Assembly: GCA_000004985.1 (NCBI GenBank)
Contig: GG738956.1
Origin: Naegleria gruberi
Taxonomy: Eukaryota
Direction: 5' to 3' (one strand)
Length of the DNA stretch: 13,852 nt
Below the pieces are notes generated by a model, which was not told the DNA's origin, searched no databases, and saw nothing but the letters and a program-made list of their open reading frames with translations. Shown here one piece after another: positions 1 through 13,852 of the stretch. A program made the position numbers and the translations under genes. Every line of letters begins with the position of its first letter. Positions within the stretch are counted from its first letter, which is position 1.

Positions 1-16
1 TATATTCAATACTTAC

Positions 17-103
17 ACATTTGTTCACATCAATATTAGGTTGTTCTAATAATAATTTAACAATTTCAATGTGACCATTTTGACAAGCAGTATACAAAGG
101 TGT
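17..103 (-). CDS. Ankyrin-repeat-encoding exon-like segment, copy 1. Minus-strand translation is TPLYTACQNGHIEIVKLLLEQPNIDVNKC. This is the most diverged copy.
   Basis: The reverse complement reads in frame for 29 codons with no stop, in DNA where TAA/TAG are frequent. It fits the ankyrin consensus (TPLH-A---GH-E-VK-LLE----DVN). On the minus strand it is bounded 5' by AAATAG (acceptor-like) and 3' by GTAAGTATT (donor-like). It differs from the consensus copy by I>T, E>Q and one synonymous Leu change. Confidence 0.4.
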
Positions 104-264
104 CTATTTCATTTAATATCATAATTATATTTAATACTTACTTCCTAATTAATTTAATATCATCAATATATTTAATACTTACTTCCTAATTAATTTAATA
201 TCATAAATATATTCAATACTTACTTCCTAATTAATTTAATATCACAAATATATTCAATACTTAC
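104..264. repeat. Minisatellite block 1: four 38-nt units separated by 3-nt spacers (ttc, ttc, ttc on the plus strand).
   Basis: 161 nt = 4*38 + 3*3. The first unit (104-141), adjacent to the exon-like segment, is a distinct variant: CTATTTCATTTAATATCATAATTATATTTAATACTTAC. Its reverse complement ends in AAATAG. Confidence 0.9.
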
Positions 265-351
265 ACATTTGTTCACATCAATGTTAGGTTGTTCTAATAA
301 TAATTTAACAATTTCAATGTAACCATTTTCACAAGCAATATATAAAGGTGT
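265..351 (-). CDS. Ankyrin-repeat-encoding exon-like segment, copy 2. Minus-strand translation is TPLYIACENGYIEIVKLLLEQPNIDVNKC.
   Basis: Same 87-nt unit. It has two substitutions versus consensus: His>Tyr at the conserved GH position, and a synonymous Asn change. The frame is intact, with the same flanking AG| and |GTAAGT motifs. Confidence 0.4.
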
Positions 352-594
352 CTATTTCATTTAATATCATAATTATATTTAATACTTACTTCCTAATTAA
401 TTTAATATCATCAATATATTCAATACTTACTTCCTAATTAATTTAATATCATAAATAAATTTAATACTTACTTCCTAATTAATTTAATATCATCAATATA
501 TTCAATACTTACTTCCTAATTAATTTAATATCATAAATATATTTAATACTTACTTCCTAATTAATTTAATATCATAAATATATTCAATACTTAC
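352..594. repeat. Minisatellite block 2: six 38-nt units with five 3-nt spacers.
   Basis: 243 nt = 6*38 + 5*3. The same variant unit sits immediately next to the 87-nt segment. The generic units alternate between a CATCAATATATT type and a CATAAATA[T/A]ATT type. Confidence 0.9.
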
Positions 595-681
595 ACATTT
601 GTTCACATCAATATTAGGTTGTTCTAATAACAATTTAACAATTTCAATGTGACCATTTTCACAAGCAATATATAAAGGTGT
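595..681 (-). CDS. Ankyrin-repeat-encoding exon-like segment, copy 3. Minus-strand translation is TPLYIACENGHIEIVKLLLEQPNIDVNKC.
   Basis: Same 87-nt unit with one synonymous change (tta>ttg Leu). Frame intact. Confidence 0.4.
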
Positions 682-1006
682 CTATTTCATTTAATATCAT
701 AATTATATTTAATACTTACTTCCTAATTAATTTAATATCATCAATATATTCAATACTTACCAACTAATTAATTTAATATCATAAATAAATTTAATACTTA
801 CTTTCTAATTAATTTAATATCATCAATATATTCAATACTTACAAACTAATTTATTTAATATCATAAATAAATTTAATACTTACAAACTAATTTATTTAAT
901 ATCATCAATATATTTAATACTTACTTCCTAATTAATTTAATATCATAAATATATTTAATACTTACTTTCTAATTAATTTAATATCATCAATATATTCAAT
1001 ACTTAC
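682..1006. repeat. Minisatellite block 3: eight 38-nt units with seven 3-nt spacers (ttc, caa, ttt, aaa, aaa, ttc, ttt).
   Basis: 325 nt = 8*38 + 7*3. It contains a second unit subfamily, AAACTAATTTATTT versus TTCCTAATTAATTT. Confidence 0.9.
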
Positions 1007-1093
1007 ACATTTGTTCACATCAATATTAGGTTGTTCTAATAATAATTTAACAATTTCAATGTGACCATTTTCACAAGCAATATATAAAGGTGT
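1007..1093 (-). CDS. Ankyrin-repeat-encoding exon-like segment, copy 4 (consensus sequence).
   Basis: Identical to copy 5. 29 in-frame codons on the minus strand, flanked by AAATAG| and |GTAAGTATT. Confidence 0.4.
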
Positions 1094-1377
1094 CTATTTC
1101 ATTTAATATCATAATTATATTTAATACTTACTTTCTAATTAATTTAATATCATCAATATATTCAATACTTACCAACTAATTAATTTAATATCATAAATAA
1201 ATTTAATACTTACAAACTAATTTATTTAATATCATCAATATATTTAATACTTACAAACTAATTTATTTAATATCATAAATATATTTAATACTTACAAACT
1301 AATTTATTTAATATCATAAATATATTTAATACTTACTTCCTAATTAATTTAATATCACAAATATATTCAATACTTAC
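1094..1377. repeat. Minisatellite block 4: seven 38-nt units with six 3-nt spacers.
   Basis: 284 nt = 7*38 + 6*3. Same variant proximal unit and the same two subfamilies as block 3. Confidence 0.9.
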
Positions 1378-1464
1378 ACATTTGTTCACATCAATATTAG
1401 GTTGTTCTAATAATAATTTAACAATTTCAATGTGACCATTTTCACAAGCAATATATAAAGGTGT
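1378..1464 (-). CDS. Ankyrin-repeat-encoding exon-like segment, copy 5 (consensus sequence).
   Basis: Identical to copy 4. It is followed on the plus strand by a variant 38-nt unit (1465-1502, ending ACCTAC, reverse complement GTAGGT) and then the N gap. Confidence 0.4.
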
Positions 1465-1502
1465 CTATTTCATTTAATATCATAAATATAGTTAATACCT
1501 AC

Positions 1503-4500
1503 NNNNNNNNNNNNNNNNNNNNNNNNNNNNNNNNNNNNNNNNNNNNNNNNNNNNNNNNNNNNNNNNNNNNNNNNNNNNNNNNNNNNNNNNNNNNNNNNNN
1601 NNNNNNNNNNNNNNNNNNNNNNNNNNNNNNNNNNNNNNNNNNNNNNNNNNNNNNNNNNNNNNNNNNNNNNNNNNNNNNNNNNNNNNNNNNNNNNNNNNNN
1701 NNNNNNNNNNNNNNNNNNNNNNNNNNNNNNNNNNNNNNNNNNNNNNNNNNNNNNNNNNNNNNNNNNNNNNNNNNNNNNNNNNNNNNNNNNNNNNNNNNNN
1801 NNNNNNNNNNNNNNNNNNNNNNNNNNNNNNNNNNNNNNNNNNNNNNNNNNNNNNNNNNNNNNNNNNNNNNNNNNNNNNNNNNNNNNNNNNNNNNNNNNNN
1901 NNNNNNNNNNNNNNNNNNNNNNNNNNNNNNNNNNNNNNNNNNNNNNNNNNNNNNNNNNNNNNNNNNNNNNNNNNNNNNNNNNNNNNNNNNNNNNNNNNNN
2001 NNNNNNNNNNNNNNNNNNNNNNNNNNNNNNNNNNNNNNNNNNNNNNNNNNNNNNNNNNNNNNNNNNNNNNNNNNNNNNNNNNNNNNNNNNNNNNNNNNNN
2101 NNNNNNNNNNNNNNNNNNNNNNNNNNNNNNNNNNNNNNNNNNNNNNNNNNNNNNNNNNNNNNNNNNNNNNNNNNNNNNNNNNNNNNNNNNNNNNNNNNNN
2201 NNNNNNNNNNNNNNNNNNNNNNNNNNNNNNNNNNNNNNNNNNNNNNNNNNNNNNNNNNNNNNNNNNNNNNNNNNNNNNNNNNNNNNNNNNNNNNNNNNNN
2301 NNNNNNNNNNNNNNNNNNNNNNNNNNNNNNNNNNNNNNNNNNNNNNNNNNNNNNNNNNNNNNNNNNNNNNNNNNNNNNNNNNNNNNNNNNNNNNNNNNNN
2401 NNNNNNNNNNNNNNNNNNNNNNNNNNNNNNNNNNNNNNNNNNNNNNNNNNNNNNNNNNNNNNNNNNNNNNNNNNNNNNNNNNNNNNNNNNNNNNNNNNNN
2501 NNNNNNNNNNNNNNNNNNNNNNNNNNNNNNNNNNNNNNNNNNNNNNNNNNNNNNNNNNNNNNNNNNNNNNNNNNNNNNNNNNNNNNNNNNNNNNNNNNNN
2601 NNNNNNNNNNNNNNNNNNNNNNNNNNNNNNNNNNNNNNNNNNNNNNNNNNNNNNNNNNNNNNNNNNNNNNNNNNNNNNNNNNNNNNNNNNNNNNNNNNNN
2701 NNNNNNNNNNNNNNNNNNNNNNNNNNNNNNNNNNNNNNNNNNNNNNNNNNNNNNNNNNNNNNNNNNNNNNNNNNNNNNNNNNNNNNNNNNNNNNNNNNNN
2801 NNNNNNNNNNNNNNNNNNNNNNNNNNNNNNNNNNNNNNNNNNNNNNNNNNNNNNNNNNNNNNNNNNNNNNNNNNNNNNNNNNNNNNNNNNNNNNNNNNNN
2901 NNNNNNNNNNNNNNNNNNNNNNNNNNNNNNNNNNNNNNNNNNNNNNNNNNNNNNNNNNNNNNNNNNNNNNNNNNNNNNNNNNNNNNNNNNNNNNNNNNNN
3001 NNNNNNNNNNNNNNNNNNNNNNNNNNNNNNNNNNNNNNNNNNNNNNNNNNNNNNNNNNNNNNNNNNNNNNNNNNNNNNNNNNNNNNNNNNNNNNNNNNNN
3101 NNNNNNNNNNNNNNNNNNNNNNNNNNNNNNNNNNNNNNNNNNNNNNNNNNNNNNNNNNNNNNNNNNNNNNNNNNNNNNNNNNNNNNNNNNNNNNNNNNNN
3201 NNNNNNNNNNNNNNNNNNNNNNNNNNNNNNNNNNNNNNNNNNNNNNNNNNNNNNNNNNNNNNNNNNNNNNNNNNNNNNNNNNNNNNNNNNNNNNNNNNNN
3301 NNNNNNNNNNNNNNNNNNNNNNNNNNNNNNNNNNNNNNNNNNNNNNNNNNNNNNNNNNNNNNNNNNNNNNNNNNNNNNNNNNNNNNNNNNNNNNNNNNNN
3401 NNNNNNNNNNNNNNNNNNNNNNNNNNNNNNNNNNNNNNNNNNNNNNNNNNNNNNNNNNNNNNNNNNNNNNNNNNNNNNNNNNNNNNNNNNNNNNNNNNNN
3501 NNNNNNNNNNNNNNNNNNNNNNNNNNNNNNNNNNNNNNNNNNNNNNNNNNNNNNNNNNNNNNNNNNNNNNNNNNNNNNNNNNNNNNNNNNNNNNNNNNNN
3601 NNNNNNNNNNNNNNNNNNNNNNNNNNNNNNNNNNNNNNNNNNNNNNNNNNNNNNNNNNNNNNNNNNNNNNNNNNNNNNNNNNNNNNNNNNNNNNNNNNNN
3701 NNNNNNNNNNNNNNNNNNNNNNNNNNNNNNNNNNNNNNNNNNNNNNNNNNNNNNNNNNNNNNNNNNNNNNNNNNNNNNNNNNNNNNNNNNNNNNNNNNNN
3801 NNNNNNNNNNNNNNNNNNNNNNNNNNNNNNNNNNNNNNNNNNNNNNNNNNNNNNNNNNNNNNNNNNNNNNNNNNNNNNNNNNNNNNNNNNNNNNNNNNNN
3901 NNNNNNNNNNNNNNNNNNNNNNNNNNNNNNNNNNNNNNNNNNNNNNNNNNNNNNNNNNNNNNNNNNNNNNNNNNNNNNNNNNNNNNNNNNNNNNNNNNNN
4001 NNNNNNNNNNNNNNNNNNNNNNNNNNNNNNNNNNNNNNNNNNNNNNNNNNNNNNNNNNNNNNNNNNNNNNNNNNNNNNNNNNNNNNNNNNNNNNNNNNNN
4101 NNNNNNNNNNNNNNNNNNNNNNNNNNNNNNNNNNNNNNNNNNNNNNNNNNNNNNNNNNNNNNNNNNNNNNNNNNNNNNNNNNNNNNNNNNNNNNNNNNNN
4201 NNNNNNNNNNNNNNNNNNNNNNNNNNNNNNNNNNNNNNNNNNNNNNNNNNNNNNNNNNNNNNNNNNNNNNNNNNNNNNNNNNNNNNNNNNNNNNNNNNNN
4301 NNNNNNNNNNNNNNNNNNNNNNNNNNNNNNNNNNNNNNNNNNNNNNNNNNNNNNNNNNNNNNNNNNNNNNNNNNNNNNNNNNNNNNNNNNNNNNNNNNNN
4401 NNNNNNNNNNNNNNNNNNNNNNNNNNNNNNNNNNNNNNNNNNNNNNNNNNNNNNNNNNNNNNNNNNNNNNNNNNNNNNNNNNNNNNNNNNNNNNNNNNNN

Positions 4501-6147
4501 NNNNNNNNNNNNNNNNNNNNNNNNNNNNNNNNNNNNNNNNNNNNNNNNNNNNNNNNNNNNNNNNNNNNNNNNNNNNNNNNNNNNNNNNNNNNNNNNNNNN
4601 NNNNNNNNNNNNNNNNNNNNNNNNNNNNNNNNNNNNNNNNNNNNNNNNNNNNNNNNNNNNNNNNNNNNNNNNNNNNNNNNNNNNNNNNNNNNNNNNNNNN
4701 NNNNNNNNNNNNNNNNNNNNNNNNNNNNNNNNNNNNNNNNNNNNNNNNNNNNNNNNNNNNNNNNNNNNNNNNNNNNNNNNNNNNNNNNNNNNNNNNNNNN
4801 NNNNNNNNNNNNNNNNNNNNNNNNNNNNNNNNNNNNNNNNNNNNNNNNNNNNNNNNNNNNNNNNNNNNNNNNNNNNNNNNNNNNNNNNNNNNNNNNNNNN
4901 NNNNNNNNNNNNNNNNNNNNNNNNNNNNNNNNNNNNNNNNNNNNNNNNNNNNNNNNNNNNNNNNNNNNNNNNNNNNNNNNNNNNNNNNNNNNNNNNNNNN
5001 NNNNNNNNNNNNNNNNNNNNNNNNNNNNNNNNNNNNNNNNNNNNNNNNNNNNNNNNNNNNNNNNNNNNNNNNNNNNNNNNNNNNNNNNNNNNNNNNNNNN
5101 NNNNNNNNNNNNNNNNNNNNNNNNNNNNNNNNNNNNNNNNNNNNNNNNNNNNNNNNNNNNNNNNNNNNNNNNNNNNNNNNNNNNNNNNNNNNNNNNNNNN
5201 NNNNNNNNNNNNNNNNNNNNNNNNNNNNNNNNNNNNNNNNNNNNNNNNNNNNNNNNNNNNNNNNNNNNNNNNNNNNNNNNNNNNNNNNNNNNNNNNNNNN
5301 NNNNNNNNNNNNNNNNNNNNNNNNNNNNNNNNNNNNNNNNNNNNNNNNNNNNNNNNNNNNNNNNNNNNNNNNNNNNNNNNNNNNNNNNNNNNNNNNNNNN
5401 NNNNNNNNNNNNNNNNNNNNNNNNNNNNNNNNNNNNNNNNNNNNNNNNNNNNNNNNNNNNNNNNNNNNNNNNNNNNNNNNNNNNNNNNNNNNNNNNNNNN
5501 NNNNNNNNNNNNNNNNNNNNNNNNNNNNNNNNNNNNNNNNNNNNNNNNNNNNNNNNNNNNNNNNNNNNNNNNNNNNNNNNNNNNNNNNNNNNNNNNNNNN
5601 NNNNNNNNNNNNNNNNNNNNNNNNNNNNNNNNNNNNNNNNNNNNNNNNNNNNNNNNNNNNNNNNNNNNNNNNNNNNNNNNNNNNNNNNNNNNNNNNNNNN
5701 NNNNNNNNNNNNNNNNNNNNNNNNNNNNNNNNNNNNNNNNNNNNNNNNNNNNNNNNNNNNNNNNNNNNNNNNNNNNNNNNNNNNNNNNNNNNNNNNNNNN
5801 NNNNNNNNNNNNNNNNNNNNNNNNNNNNNNNNNNNNNNNNNNNNNNNNNNNNNNNNNNNNNNNNNNNNNNNNNNNNNNNNNNNNNNNNNNNNNNNNNNNN
5901 NNNNNNNNNNNNNNNNNNNNNNNNNNNNNNNNNNNNNNNNNNNNNNNNNNNNNNNNNNNNNNNNNNNNNNNNNNNNNNNNNNNNNNNNNNNNNNNNNNNN
6001 NNNNNNNNNNNNNNNNNNNNNNNNNNNNNNNNNNNNNNNNNNNNNNNNNNNNNNNNNNNNNNNNNNNNNNNNNNNNNNNNNNNNNNNNNNNNNNNNNNNN
6101 NNNNNNNNNNNNNNNNNNNNNNNNNNNNNNNNNNNNNNNNNNNNNNN
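1503..6147. other. Run of 4645 N: assembly gap or masked sequence with no information.
   Basis: Contiguous n characters. The ORF-track entries 1461..6155(+) and 1470..6164(-), and the X portion of 1492..6660(-), are artefacts of translating N. Confidence 0.99.
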
Positions 6148-6660
6148 TTCTTTAACACTTTCATTCTTGGTGTTTGTATTATTCAAAGATTCAAACAACT
6201 TTCTCTTCTTTTCATTTTCCTCAAAATTTAATTTTAATTGATAATATCTCTTCCAGAATAATATAAATGATATTTGTGAAGGGACAATGTTAGTATGAAT
6301 TTCCTTTAATTTTGGATCATTTTCCAACAATTTACTAATTTCATCAGTTTTAGAATCAATATCAATTTGAATAGTATTCAAATCATTTTCATCACTTAAA
6401 TAAATTGGTGTTTTGTATGATTGTTCATTGTACAGAATATTTTCAATACTAATATTTGATGATGATTGATCCGAATCTCCCAATTCTGAAGCCAATTCAT
6501 TAATCTTTACAATACCAACAGAAACGGCATCAGCAAATTCATCAATATCCTTCTTGTACAACTCGATCAGTTGGTTGCCATTTTGTGTAACCGTTTGTGA
6601 AACTTGCTCAGCCAGCGATGAAAAGTAATCAAACATTTTTTTTAGAAAATTTTTTCTCAT
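6148..6660 (-). CDS. BSD domain-containing protein, BSDC1-like, N-terminal 171 codons. Partial: it continues into the N gap.
   Basis: The minus-strand ORF starts at ATG 6660 (a second in-frame ATG is at 6636) and runs 513 nt with no stop. The translation contains the BSD-domain signature region ISKLLENDPKLKEIHTNIVPSQISFILFWKRYYQLK, with the conserved FW-RY core at residues 135-139. The F/W codons were verified at 6253-6258. The N-terminal segment LIELYKKDIDEFADAV parallels the vertebrate BSDC1 motif EALEFMKRDLTEFTQVV as I recall it. Codon usage is AT-rich at the third position. Confidence 0.8.
6181..6348 (-). other. BSD domain coding region within the BSDC1-like CDS, approximately residues 105-160.
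   Basis: The conserved FW pair and surrounding helix-forming residues (EISKLLEN ... FWKRYYQLKLNFEE) map here. Domain boundaries are approximate. Confidence 0.6.
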
Positions 6661-6820
6661 AAATTATCTCTTTAAGGTTTTTTTAAAATCTGATTGCAAA
6701 ATTTCCATTTATTGGAAATGCTAGTCTTGTAAATTGTGTTATTCATTTCCTAGTCTAGTAATGAATTCCAGTTTGTGTTCAACATAAAAACTATTGAATT
6801 TGGAATGTCTGTAGCAGACT

Positions 6821-6831
6821 TGGCCGAGTGG
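6821..6831 (+). promoter_or_regulatory. Pol III internal promoter A box (TGGCCGAGTGG).
   Basis: Matches the TRGCNNAGTGG consensus at tRNA positions 8-18. Confidence 0.8.
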
Positions 6832-6872
6832 TTAAGGCGACAGACTTGAAATCTGTTGGGGAAACCTTCGTA

Positions 6873-6883
6873 GGTTCGAATCC
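6873..6883 (+). promoter_or_regulatory. Pol III internal promoter B box (GGTTCGAATCC).
   Basis: Exact match to the GGTTCGANTCC consensus in the T arm. Confidence 0.85.
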
Positions 6884-6901
6884 TGCAGTCTGCGAGTGAA
6901 C

Positions 6902-6905
6902 TTTT
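6902..6905 (+). terminator. Pol III terminator T-run (TTTT), 8 nt downstream of the tRNA 3' end.
   Basis: A run of four T on the coding strand immediately after the tRNA. This is typical eukaryotic pol III termination and supports a nuclear eukaryotic origin. Confidence 0.7.
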
Positions 6906-8608
6906 AAATATTACAGCTTTTGGGATCCATTTTTAGGGATGGAACTTTGGATTTATCTACAATTTACGGTTAGGGATTTTGGATATACTCTCGCTCCAAT
7001 CAAAGAATGGTTGATAAGAATTATTTTACAACTCAAACAAAAAACCTGTTACCGTTTTGGTGATAAATTAAAATTTCACTCTAAATTGTTCGGTGATTCA
7101 AACATGTTACAAACAATGGGATTATTTATTATGTTTTTGTAATAATATATACACAATTTATTTTCCTTCAGTCTGGTAGAAATGTAATTAGTTTAGAACA
7201 AAATAACCTGCAATTTGAATCTGTATGCAGTGGAATTAAGTTAGATTCTTTGGAGACAAGGCAAATATTGAACCATTAATTATTACTACTTCAGTTAAAG
7301 AGAAGCAGAAAAAGGAGAAAACTAAAGCCATCAAAAGAAAGAATAAGGAAACTCCTTAAAAACAGACTTGGTTGTTTTTTTCTTTCAAGGAGTTTTTGAA
7401 ATTTTTGAAATTTCAACCAAACGATCCCAACATCTATGAGCTGCAAATTAATACACGGGAAAATTTTGTGTGAAATTAATGGATTCAACTAATTCTTCCG
7501 TTCCATTAATAATACTATTTATCAATAAATTATATTTAAAGGAATCAATTTGATTTTCTTGATGAAATAAAATGTGCATTTTTTTTATTTAAAATAAAAG
7601 TTTTTTAATACATTATTTTTGATGTTACAGTTTATTCATTATATGATTTGAGGTTGAAATAATCATATTGGACCTCAAGACACCTTGGAGATGTGATTCT
7701 TTGAAACTATTTTCATTTTATCAAGAATATCCAATTTAACCTTTTGAGCTTGTTAGAATATTTTCCAAAAAGAGGCATTTGATAAATTATTGCCGTATTG
7801 TGTTCAAATCAAGAAGGTGGATTGGTTTATTTTTAAATGAAAACATGAATACCAAAAATTTATTTGTTTTTCTTGGTCACTGTATATAGAAATATGAAAA
7901 GAGAGAATTTAAAGACTTCATTAATAAATCGTCTTCTGAGAGTGAGTAGGGATTATTTATAGGAGGAATTTAATAAGAGTAATTCATTCTCCTTTTTCTC
8001 CCAAAACAAATTCTCCTTTTTCTGGTACTTATATTCTGGATTTGGTATTCTTTTTGAAAAAATACGTTCCCCAAAGTGTTACTGAATTTACATACGAACA
8101 CATGGTAGAACCAATTGATCAATTTTTGATTTGGTAATAAATTATGCGTGAACAATAATTTTCAAAGGCTTGTTAAAAAATTTGAAATAATTTGATGAAG
8201 TTGTGTATTTGATTGGATTCTTTGATCTTACATTCTTGAGGTGATGAAGTATTGATGGAAAAATCAAATGCTGAAGGGAAGTTTTTGTGGCGGCTACAGA
8301 TTGTATTTTTTCAAGTATTGGTGTTCATCAGAGTGTGTGTGGACTTGTTGTAATTTATAATTTTATCAAATCACAAATCCCTTTCCAAATCAAATCATTC
8401 GATTCTATTTTGGAAGTGAGAGAATTTCTGAATCAATGAGTTTGTATGGTGAAAAATAAACTGATGTTGAAGAAACAAGGTTTGTTAAAAAAATATTTTG
8501 AATTGAATTTTGAACATGAGTATTGCGTTTTGGTCTCATTAGATTCCTTAATTAATTTCCGATGGAGTGGTTATCTTACATTGTTGTGGTGATGAAATAT
8601 CGGTATTA

Positions 8609-13773: not shown

Positions 13774-13852
13774 CAACAATACACACATGATGATTGTAAA
13801 TCCACTGAATGTTATCTACACATGTGTTTTCACCTTCCAAATTACAACCTTA

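What the first reader, a model, noticed from the sequence alone, without database searches (positions are those of the whole stretch)
1..1502. Ankyrin-repeat coding units embedded in a higher-order satellite-like array
The minus strand of five near-identical 87-nt segments translates without stops as TPLYIACENGHIEIVKLLLEQPNIDVNKC. That is an ankyrin repeat missing its usual 4-aa beta-hairpin. Each segment is exactly 29 codons, so the phase is 0 on both sides. Each is bounded by AG| and |GTAAGTATT. Between segments lie 161-325-nt blocks of a 41-nt minisatellite. This looks like a gene with one repeat per exon that has been amplified together with its introns, or like a satellite built from an exon-plus-intron module. 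The copies are about 97-100 % identical, so the amplification is either very recent or the array is homogenised. Either way it is an unusual way to build an ankyrin-repeat protein.
Basis: partly seen in the sequence, partly recalled or inferred. Interest (0 to 1): 0.75.

Follow-up and report, generated by a model that had tools for sequence, protein, structure and literature searches.

The report
Ankyrin exon array with repeat-built introns
In the amoeba Naegleria gruberi, an unannotated stretch looks like part of an ankyrin-repeat gene with one short 29-residue repeat per exon, copied together with introns that are themselves arrays of a 41-base unit carrying full splice signals; this is a recognisable kind of repeat-gene growth with one unusual twist, and nothing yet shows it is expressed.

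Summary
On the minus strand of 1-1502 there are five 87-nt units, 94-100% identical. Each is an open 29-codon ankyrin repeat (Pfam Ank E=2e-8) bounded by ...ATAG| and |GTAAGTATT. The spacers are 161, 243, 284 and 325 nt.

The window is Naegleria gruberi, because the neighbouring BSD ORF is 100% identical to an N. gruberi protein.

New anatomy: every spacer is exactly 41n+38 nt. Each 41-mer is a 38-nt GTAAGTATT...AATTAG piece plus a 3-nt linker (GAA, TTT, AAA or TTG). The linker is ten times more variable than the rest.

Joining the exons directly gives a seamless 29-residue-period protein. It aligns without gaps, at 64% identity, to intronless metagenomic proteins with the same short period, and one of these models as an ankyrin solenoid. 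Spacer length and 5' splice site match Naegleria introns.

Best reading: a fragment of a recently amplified or homogenised one-repeat-per-exon gene whose introns are minisatellites. Spider silk genes and brown-alga LRR genes are built this way.

Not shown: transcription, splicing, copy number. The array runs into an assembly gap and off the window. No database protein contains two or more units. A silent satellite or young pseudogene remains possible, as does a 3-nt microexon reading.

The parts
1378..1464 (-). Exon-like unit 1: 87 nt, 29 codons, TPLYIACENGHIEIVKLLLEQPNIDVNKC
   Evidence: Pfam Ank E=2.2e-8.
1007..1093 (-). Exon-like unit 2, identical to unit 1
595..681 (-). Exon-like unit 3, with one synonymous change (TTA>TTG, codon 17)
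265..351 (-). Exon-like unit 4, with H11Y and one synonymous change
17..103 (-). Exon-like unit 5, with I5T, E8Q and one synonymous change
1094..1377 (-). Intron-like spacer of 284 nt = 6 x 41 + 38. Linkers are GAA TTT TTT TTT TTG AAA.
682..1006 (-). Intron-like spacer of 325 nt = 7 x 41 + 38. Linkers are AAA GAA TTT TTT AAA TTG GAA.
352..594 (-). Intron-like spacer of 243 nt = 5 x 41 + 38. All linkers are GAA.
104..264 (-). Intron-like spacer of 161 nt = 3 x 41 + 38. All linkers are GAA.
   Evidence: No RNA structure beyond shuffles (z=+1.0).
1465..1502 (-). Terminal-type 38-mer (GTAGGTATT...ATGAAATAG) abutting the N gap. It shows that the array continues upstream into the gap.
1..16 (-). First 16 nt of the next spacer (GTAAGTATTGAATATA). 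It shows that the array continues beyond the window start.
1503..6147 (.). Assembly gap (4645 N) that truncates the array. It also hides the 3' end of the BSD gene.

Best explanation
This is a fragment of an unannotated, lineage-specific Naegleria gruberi ankyrin-repeat gene, or a very young derivative of one, read on the minus strand.

Each 29-residue short-form ankyrin repeat is one symmetric phase-0 exon of 87 nt. Each intron (161-325 nt) is a minisatellite of 41-nt units ending in a distinct 38-nt unit that supplies the used 3' splice site.

The most likely splicing joins the exon-proximal GTAAGTATT to the last ...ATGAAATAG. This gives a seamless array of 29-residue repeats that stacks as an ankyrin solenoid with truncated hairpin loops.

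The exon-plus-intron module was multiplied, and is kept nearly identical, by unequal recombination between the identical introns. Slippage within the 41-mer array changes intron length in whole units.

Shown: the anatomy, the ankyrin identity, the phase, the splice-signal match, the existence of contiguous 29-residue-period homologues, and the organism.

Inferred: transcription, which splice sites are paired, and the amplification mechanism.
For: - Organism: the BSD ORF at 6148-6639(-) is 100% identical to an N. gruberi predicted protein.
- Ankyrin identity: a single unit scores Ank 34.4 bits, above the cut-off. The five-unit concatenate scores Ank_2 at E=4e-53.
- Exon-like frame: each unit is exactly 29 codons. 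TAG lies immediately upstream. Reading into the spacer meets a stop after 14 codons.
- Spacers: all are 41n+38 nt, and every unit starts with GTAAGTATT.
- Match to real introns: introns solved in N. fowleri and N. lovaniensis begin GTAAGTAC and GTAAGTAT, are 158 and 242 nt long, and are internally repetitive. The average N. gruberi intron is 203 bp (PMC8296547).
- Contiguous homologues: direct concatenation aligns without gaps to P0008 at 64% identity over all five repeats. P0008, P0021, P0023, P0077 and P0065 are contiguous ORFs with the same 29-residue period.
- Fold: the P0008 model has pLDDT 87 with helix pairs every 29 residues. It matches ankyrin and DARPin structures.
- Selection: among six exon substitutions, three are synonymous. 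pN/pS is 0.24 with p=0.09, a weak hint of constraint.
- Precedent: iterated, homogenised introns that delimit repeat units are documented (PMC9779670, PMC11378527).
Against: - No protein in the database, which includes the N. gruberi proteome and Logan-derived proteins, contains two or more of these units. The best identity is 66%.
- No start exon or terminal exon is visible.
- Exons and introns are equally homogeneous, so purifying selection on the coding part is not demonstrated.
- GC is 17%, well below the neighbouring gene (28%) and the genome (33%).
- The array borders an assembly gap, so copy number and unit order may be imperfect.
- Each of the 21 internal units carries the same GTAAGTATT donor-like start and an AATTAG acceptor-like end. 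These decoys would be expected to disturb simple first-GT-to-last-AG splicing.
Confidence: 0.55

Rival explanations
1. Silent satellite or young pseudogene. An exon-plus-intron module from a former ankyrin gene was amplified as non-coding tandem DNA. The intact frames and splice signals merely reflect its youth.
For: - GC is 17% and the array lies next to an assembly gap.
- No annotated or database protein contains the units.
- Exon and intron parts are equally similar between copies.
- With only six substitutions, the chance of no stop arising is 0.65, so the open frames say little.
- The array is absent from the orthologous neighbourhood in N. fowleri and N. lovaniensis.
Against: - Half of the exon substitutions are synonymous, against 19.5% expected (p=0.09).
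- All five units keep their frame, their phase and both splice junctions.
- The encoded 29-residue-period array has close contiguous homologues that model as folded proteins.
Confidence: 0.25
2. Mini-intron and microexon gene. Each 38-nt GTAAGTATT...AATTAG piece is removed as its own intron. The 3-nt linkers are then kept as codons (E, K, F, L), giving loops of variable length (0 to n residues) at the ankyrin hairpin position. Splice-site choice would vary the binding surface.
For: - Every spacer is 41n+38 nt, so any complete pairing of internal sites keeps the frame.
- Positions 1-9, 21-31 and 33-38 are invariant in all 21 internal units. The linker is ten times more variable per site: 0.535 against 0.051. 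P=0.017 for at least 3 of 8 mutational events falling in those 3 sites.
- No linker is a stop codon.
- Adding 3-7 residues would give 32-36-residue periods, close to the 32-34 of the N. gruberi paralogue P0014.
- 3-nt microexons do exist elsewhere (PMC8553928).
- Introns of about 30 bp are assumed possible in N. fowleri (PMC8296547).
Against: - Runs of 3-nt exons are, to my knowledge, unprecedented.
- 38 nt is far below the species' mean intron length of 203 bp.
- The loops this would encode (EFFFLK, KEFFKLE, EEEEE) do not resemble ankyrin hairpins.
- Contiguous homologues show that 29 residues suffice.
- The linker variants could stem from a few events spread by unequal exchange. They occur only in the two introns nearest the gap.
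- No database protein has such junctions.
Confidence: 0.1
3. Assembly artefact. The repeat is real, but the number of modules, their order and the spacer lengths result from mis-assembly of near-identical Sanger reads.
For: - The contig ends inside the array, at a 4645-N gap.
- The 38-mer at the contig edge has three unique differences, as expected for low-quality read ends.
- The modules are 248-412 nt long and 94-100% identical, which is below the resolving power of short reads.
Against: - Each module carries private substitutions and a distinct pattern of unit subtypes. This argues that the reads were placed by real differences.
- The 41n+38 rule holds in all four spacers.
Confidence: 0.1

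Closest known systems
Spider silk genes with iterated, homogenised introns (Argiope MaSp2; flagelliform spidroin)
   Same: [quoted passage not shown]
- The introns are nearly identical within a gene (mean 97.6% in MaSp2, PMC9779670).
- The introns are thought to promote unequal crossing-over and homogenisation.
   Different: - Different protein class and kingdom.
- The silk introns are not described as arrays of a short unit that itself carries complete splice signals.
- Silk transcripts are documented. Here none is.
Brown-alga LRR-ROCO and NB-TPR genes (one repeat per exon, exon shuffling)
   Same: - Each structural repeat (LRR of 72 bp) is a separate exon of fixed length and symmetric phase.
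- The exons are duplicated or shuffled, and can be skipped in frame to vary the repeat number (PMC11378527).
   Different: - Those exons are diversified and under positive selection, whereas these are almost identical.
- Phase is 2 there and 0 here.
- No minisatellite introns are reported there.
Canonical 33-residue ankyrin repeat (Pfam PF00023, clan Ank)
   Same: - TPLx...NGH...IVKLLL...DVN helix-turn-helix core.
- A significant HMM match.
   Different: - The period is 29 residues, not 33, and the beta-hairpin/loop residues (profile positions 1-3 and 31-33) are absent.
- The same short form occurs in a small family of intronless metagenomic ORFs (P0008, P0021, P0023, P0077, P0065). Of the three whose contigs were read, P0008 lies on short contigs with tightly spaced genes and P0065 on an AT-rich, gene-dense one.
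Recursive splice sites and microexons
   Same: An acceptor-like AG and a strong donor GTAAGT recur inside an intron. 3-nt microexons exist (bee elavl2, PMC8553928).
   Different: - Ratchet points juxtapose AG|GT with a zero-length exon and occur in very long introns (PMC8605326).
- Here AG and GT are 3 nt apart, recur every 41 nt, and lie in introns shorter than 330 nt.
Introner elements and intron gain by tandem duplication
   Same: Near-identical intron sequence is present in many copies. The duplicated segment carries both GT and AG.
   Different: - Introners are dispersed among unrelated genes (PMC3488318). These copies are tandem within one locus.
- No dispersal could be tested.

Membership tests
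Ankyrin repeat (Pfam PF00023 / Ank clan) | Sequence matches the family HMM above the gathering score | tested here: met
   A single 29-aa unit scores 34.4 bits against a cut-off of 21.1, E=2.2e-8. The five-unit concatenate scores Ank at E=8e-46 and Ank_2 at E=4e-53.
Ankyrin repeat (Pfam PF00023 / Ank clan) | 33-residue period including the beta-hairpin/loop | tested here: not met
   The period is 29 residues and only profile positions 4-30 of 33 are matched. The same 29-residue period is seen in homologues P0008 and P0021.
Ankyrin repeat (Pfam PF00023 / Ank clan) | Helix-turn-helix units stacking into a solenoid | tested here: inconclusive
   The concatenated exons could not be submitted for folding. 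The 64%-identical 29-residue-period homologue P0008 models at pLDDT 87 with helix pairs every 29 residues, and it matches ankyrin and DARPin structures.
Spliceosomal GT-AG (U2-type) intron | GT...AG boundaries with an extended 5' site like that of the genus | tested here: met
   All spacers begin GTAAGTATT and end ATAG. Solved N. fowleri and N. lovaniensis introns begin GTAAGTAC and GTAAGTAT (n=2).
Spliceosomal GT-AG (U2-type) intron | Length within the species' range, and removal restores one reading frame | tested here: met
   Spacers are 161-325 nt, against a mean of 203 bp in N. gruberi (PMC8296547). The exons are 87 nt and phase 0/0. The concatenate is open and matches Ank.
Spliceosomal GT-AG (U2-type) intron | Observed removal from RNA (cDNA or RNA-seq junctions) | not testable with these tools
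   No transcript data can be reached. No protein carrying the spliced junction is in the database.
One-repeat-per-exon amplified repeat-protein gene (silk MaSp2/Flag, ROCO-LRR type) | Each structural repeat is one exon of fixed length and symmetric phase, separated by homologous introns | tested here: met
   Five exons of 87 nt. The introns share first and last units and are made of the same 41-mer.
One-repeat-per-exon amplified repeat-protein gene (silk MaSp2/Flag, ROCO-LRR type) | A complete gene (start, stop, flanking non-repeat exons) that is expressed | not testable with these tools
   The array is cut by the N gap and by the window edge. The N. gruberi genome cannot be reached.
Satellite DNA | Head-to-tail tandem array, homogenised, with higher-order structure | tested here: met
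   TRF reports periods of 41, 248, 330, 371 and 412 nt at 81-96% matches. The higher-order period is not constant.
Satellite DNA | Non-coding, long arrays and/or many genomic loci | not testable with these tools
   The genome cannot be reached. Two metagenome scans for the junctions found nothing. The units retain open frames.
Recursive splice site (ratchet point) | Juxtaposed acceptor and donor (AG|GTAAGT) within a long intron | tested here: not met
   AG and GT are separated by 3 nt in all 21 units, and the introns are 325 nt or shorter.

The most novel reading that the evidence does not exclude
Each 38-nt piece is a functional mini-intron and the 3-nt linkers are tandem microexons. One Naegleria gene would then make ankyrin repeats whose hairpin-loop length and sequence (0 to 7 residues of E, K, F or L) are set by splice-site choice within a minisatellite. 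Every choice would stay in frame because each spacer is 41n+38 nt. This would be a new way of diversifying a repeat protein's binding surface, and a natural test bed for minimal intron and exon size.
Probability: 0.1. Interest if true: 0.8.

Novelty: new variant of a known kind. Interest (0 to 1): 0.45.

Why it matters
If the locus is expressed, it shows exon-plus-intron amplification building a repeat protein in a deep-branching protist. The copies are young enough to read the mechanism directly: identical introns serve as recombination substrates, and intron length changes in whole 41-nt units.

The introns are the interesting part. They consist of 3-7 internal units that repeat the flanking donor exactly and carry an acceptor-like AATTAG. 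The cell must therefore either ignore about 20 strong-looking decoy sites or use them. That makes the locus a compact natural experiment on splice-site choice, minimal intron size and microexon recognition.

If it is silent, it is an ordinary young satellite derived from a gene fragment.

Tried and rejected
- Reaching the N. gruberi genome or gene models: the look-up of encoding contigs has no record for either N. gruberi protein. The ORFs in 1-1502 are all shorter than 30 aa, so they cannot be looked up.
- Metagenome scans for the exon/intron junction and for the 41-mer junction: 0 hits each.
- Viral contigs: only generic ankyrins at 28-42% identity in giant-virus bins. The 29-residue-period family was not found there.
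A homologue was used as proxy instead.
- Is the 41-mer derived from the exon? Local alignment is no better than shuffles, p=0.27-0.41.
- RNA structure in the intron: z=+1.0, so none.
- Rfam: only the tRNA.
- Synteny: N. fowleri and N. lovaniensis share only the BSD gene. There is no ankyrin array within 10 kb.
- Coding search in 6640-8608, to find local introns for comparison: the longest open stretch is 80 codons and nothing was usable.
- A brute-force intron solver timed out. It was replaced by a direct one-intron solution.
- Plus-strand GTG ORFs of 29 aa in the array are by-products of the repeat.

Full report
**What the window is.** Only three islands of real sequence exist: 1-1502 (GC 17%), 6148-8608 (GC 29%) and 13774-13852. 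They are separated by N runs of 4645 and 5165 bases. The minus-strand ORF at 6148-6639 is 100% identical over 163 residues to a "predicted protein [Naegleria gruberi]" with a BSD domain. The N. fowleri and N. lovaniensis orthologues are 53-58% identical. The window is therefore a piece of the gapped N. gruberi draft assembly. A tRNA-Ser(UGA) lies at 6814-6894.

**Checking the observation.** On the minus strand of 1-1502 there are five 87-nt units, at 1464-1378, 1093-1007, 681-595, 351-265 and 103-17. They are 94.3-100% identical. Each is an open 29-codon frame preceded by AAATAG and followed by GTAAGTATTGAA. Three encode TPLYIACENGHIEIVKLLLEQPNIDVNKC, one has H11Y, and one has I5T plus E8Q. 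A single unit passes Pfam's Ank threshold (34.4 bits against 21.1, E=2.2e-8) on profile positions 4-30 of 33. The spacers are 284, 325, 243 and 161 nt, built from a 41-nt period.

**New anatomy.** Cutting the minus strand at every GTA[AG]GTAT shows that each spacer is exactly 41n+38 nt, with n = 6, 7, 5 and 3.
- Each internal 41-mer is a 38-nt piece, GTAAGTATT...AATTAG, followed by 3 nt: GAA in 11 units, TTT in 5, AAA in 3 and TTG in 2.
- The last piece before every exon is a distinct 38-mer ending ATGAAATAG. Four of the five copies are identical.
- Across the 21 internal units, positions 1-9, 21-31 and 33-38 never vary.
- Variation is confined to positions 10, 14, 19, 20 and 32 and to the three linker positions. 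The linker differs ten times more per site than the rest: 0.535 against 0.051. P=0.017 for at least 3 of 8 mutational events falling there.
- Because each spacer is 41n+38, any complete pairing of internal GT and AG sites leaves a multiple of 3 nt.
- Non-GAA linkers occur only in the two spacers nearest the gap.
- A terminal-type 38-mer abuts the gap at 1502-1465, and a first-type unit starts at 16-1. The array therefore continues on both sides.

**Do the spacers look like introns?** Reading from an exon into the spacer meets a stop after 14 codons, and TAG lies directly upstream of each exon.
- N. gruberi introns average 203 bp (table in PMC8296547).
- In the N. fowleri and N. lovaniensis loci fetched through the BSD orthologues, I solved one intron in each neighbouring large gene by restoring the annotated product length. 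They are 158 nt (GTAAGTAC...TTTAG) and 242 nt (GTAAGTAT...CCAG), and both are internally repetitive.
- So the 5' site, the length and even the repetitiveness of the spacers are typical for the genus. This rests on n=2 plus the published mean.
- The spacer RNA has no structure beyond shuffles.

**Is the spliced product plausible?** The five exons joined directly score Ank_2 at E=4e-53.
- A search of 5.8 billion proteins found no sequence more than 66% identical. The locus is therefore not represented by any annotated or assembled protein carrying two or more units, even though the N. gruberi proteome is in that database.
- The best relatives (P0008, P0021, P0023, P0077, P0065) are contiguous, intronless ORFs from metagenomes. 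They have the same 29-residue period and even the same ...DVNxC|TPLY junction.
- The concatenate aligns to P0008 without a single gap across all five repeats, at 64% identity.
- The concatenate itself could not be folded. P0008 models at pLDDT 87.3 and pTM 0.80, with helix pairs every 29 residues. Its best structural matches are ankyrin-repeat proteins and DARPins.
- A 29-residue ankyrin period is thus a real, foldable variant, and no extra residues are needed between the exons.
- Of the three relatives whose contigs were read (L001, L002, L011): P0008 sits on short contigs with tightly spaced genes, and P0065 sits on a 6.2-kb, 27% GC, gene-dense contig beside another ankyrin ORF. Their origin is not established.

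**Gene or satellite?**
- The six substitutions among the exon copies split 3 synonymous to 3 non-synonymous. pN/pS is 0.24, and P=0.09 against the 19.5% synonymous expectation. This is a hint of constraint, not proof.
- With so few changes, the absence of stops is uninformative: P=0.65.
- Exons and introns are equally homogeneous. This means either very recent amplification or concerted evolution.
- The array is absent within 10 kb of the BSD orthologue in N. fowleri and N. lovaniensis, where only the BSD gene is conserved. It is therefore lineage-specific, or synteny is broken.
- Two metagenome scans for the junction sequences found nothing.
- I cannot test expression or genome-wide copy number, because the N. 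gruberi assembly and reads are out of reach.

**Most likely mechanism.** I favour a fragment of a one-repeat-per-exon ankyrin gene, at 0.55.
- The exon-plus-intron module was multiplied by unequal recombination between identical introns.
- The 41-mer arrays grow and shrink by slippage.
- Splicing runs from the exon-proximal donor to the distinct terminal acceptor and yields seamless 29-residue repeats.
- Symmetric phase-0 exons would also allow in-frame exon skipping.
- This architecture is a known kind. Argiope MaSp2 and flagelliform silk genes have iterated introns about 97% identical that delimit repeat units and are proposed to drive homogenisation (PMC9779670). Brown-alga ROCO genes encode each LRR in its own 72-bp exon, with shuffling and alternative splicing (PMC11378527).

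**Rival explanations.**
- A silent satellite or young pseudogene: 0.25.
- The mini-intron/microexon reading: 0.10.
- A mis-assembled array: 0.10.

**What remains odd.** A neutral minisatellite does not predict that all three splice-signal-like blocks stay invariant in 21 units while the 3 nt between AG and GT take four forms. It also does not predict a unit length that preserves the frame under any site pairing. Single 3-nt microexons exist elsewhere (PMC8553928), and ratchet points juxtapose AG|GT (PMC8605326). A run of 3-nt exons separated by 38-nt introns would be new. The loops this would encode (EFFFLK, EEEEE) do not look like ankyrin hairpins. The linker variants may also trace to a few events spread by exchange between two adjacent introns. 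I therefore give this reading about 10%. A k-mer search of existing RNA-seq (PRJEB23822) would settle it.

**Verdict.** The finding is a new variant of a known kind, of moderate interest, with one cheap experiment that could raise or lower it sharply.

Noticed in passing
window 6148-6660 (-): The BSD-domain gene is 100% identical to an N. gruberi predicted protein of 244 aa. Its last 81 codons fall in the N gap. An in-frame ATG lies 8 codons upstream of the annotated start (MRKNFLKK-MFDY...).
   Followed up: partly
window 6814-6894 (+): A tRNA-Ser (anticodon UGA, Rfam 64 bits) lies about 175 nt upstream of the BSD gene start, on the opposite strand.
   Followed up: yes
window 6900-8608: About 1.7 kb has no open stretch longer than 80 codons on either strand, and no similarity to the N. 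fowleri or N. lovaniensis loci. That is long for a genome reported as 58% coding.
   Followed up: partly
window 8225-8252 and 8573-8600: A 28-nt direct repeat (89% identical, 348 nt apart) reads ...TTCATCACCxCAAxAATGTAAGAT on the minus strand, a donor-like GTAAGAT. The second copy abuts the second N gap. Beyond about 30 nt the flanks do not align.
   Followed up: partly
L009 11038-16922 (-) and L010 10913-16464 (-): The single introns of the large, Pfam-less gene next to BSD in N. fowleri (158 nt) and N. lovaniensis (242 nt) are built of short internal repeats (ATACATTCC..., CCATCCATACATA...). Repetitive introns may be common in the genus.
   Followed up: partly
L001 111-821; L011 2223-2852 and 2944-3687: A small family of intronless proteins has a 29-residue ankyrin period and a conserved N-terminal and C-terminal frame (MKxGLxQNNG...KEYKQKWIQKFN). 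P0008 is on a short contig with tightly spaced genes. P0065 is on an AT-rich (27% GC), gene-dense contig next to another ankyrin ORF. The origin is unknown, and the family was not found in IMG/VR.
   Followed up: partly
L009 and L010 versus window 6148-8608: Only the BSD gene is shared between the N. gruberi window and the N. fowleri and N. lovaniensis loci. The DUF1674 gene upstream and the large gene downstream in those species have no counterpart in the visible N. gruberi sequence.
   Followed up: partly
window 1465-1502: The 38-mer at the contig edge differs from the other four terminal units at three positions (GTAGGTATTAACTATATTT...). This could be true divergence or low-quality read ends next to the gap.
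   Followed up: no
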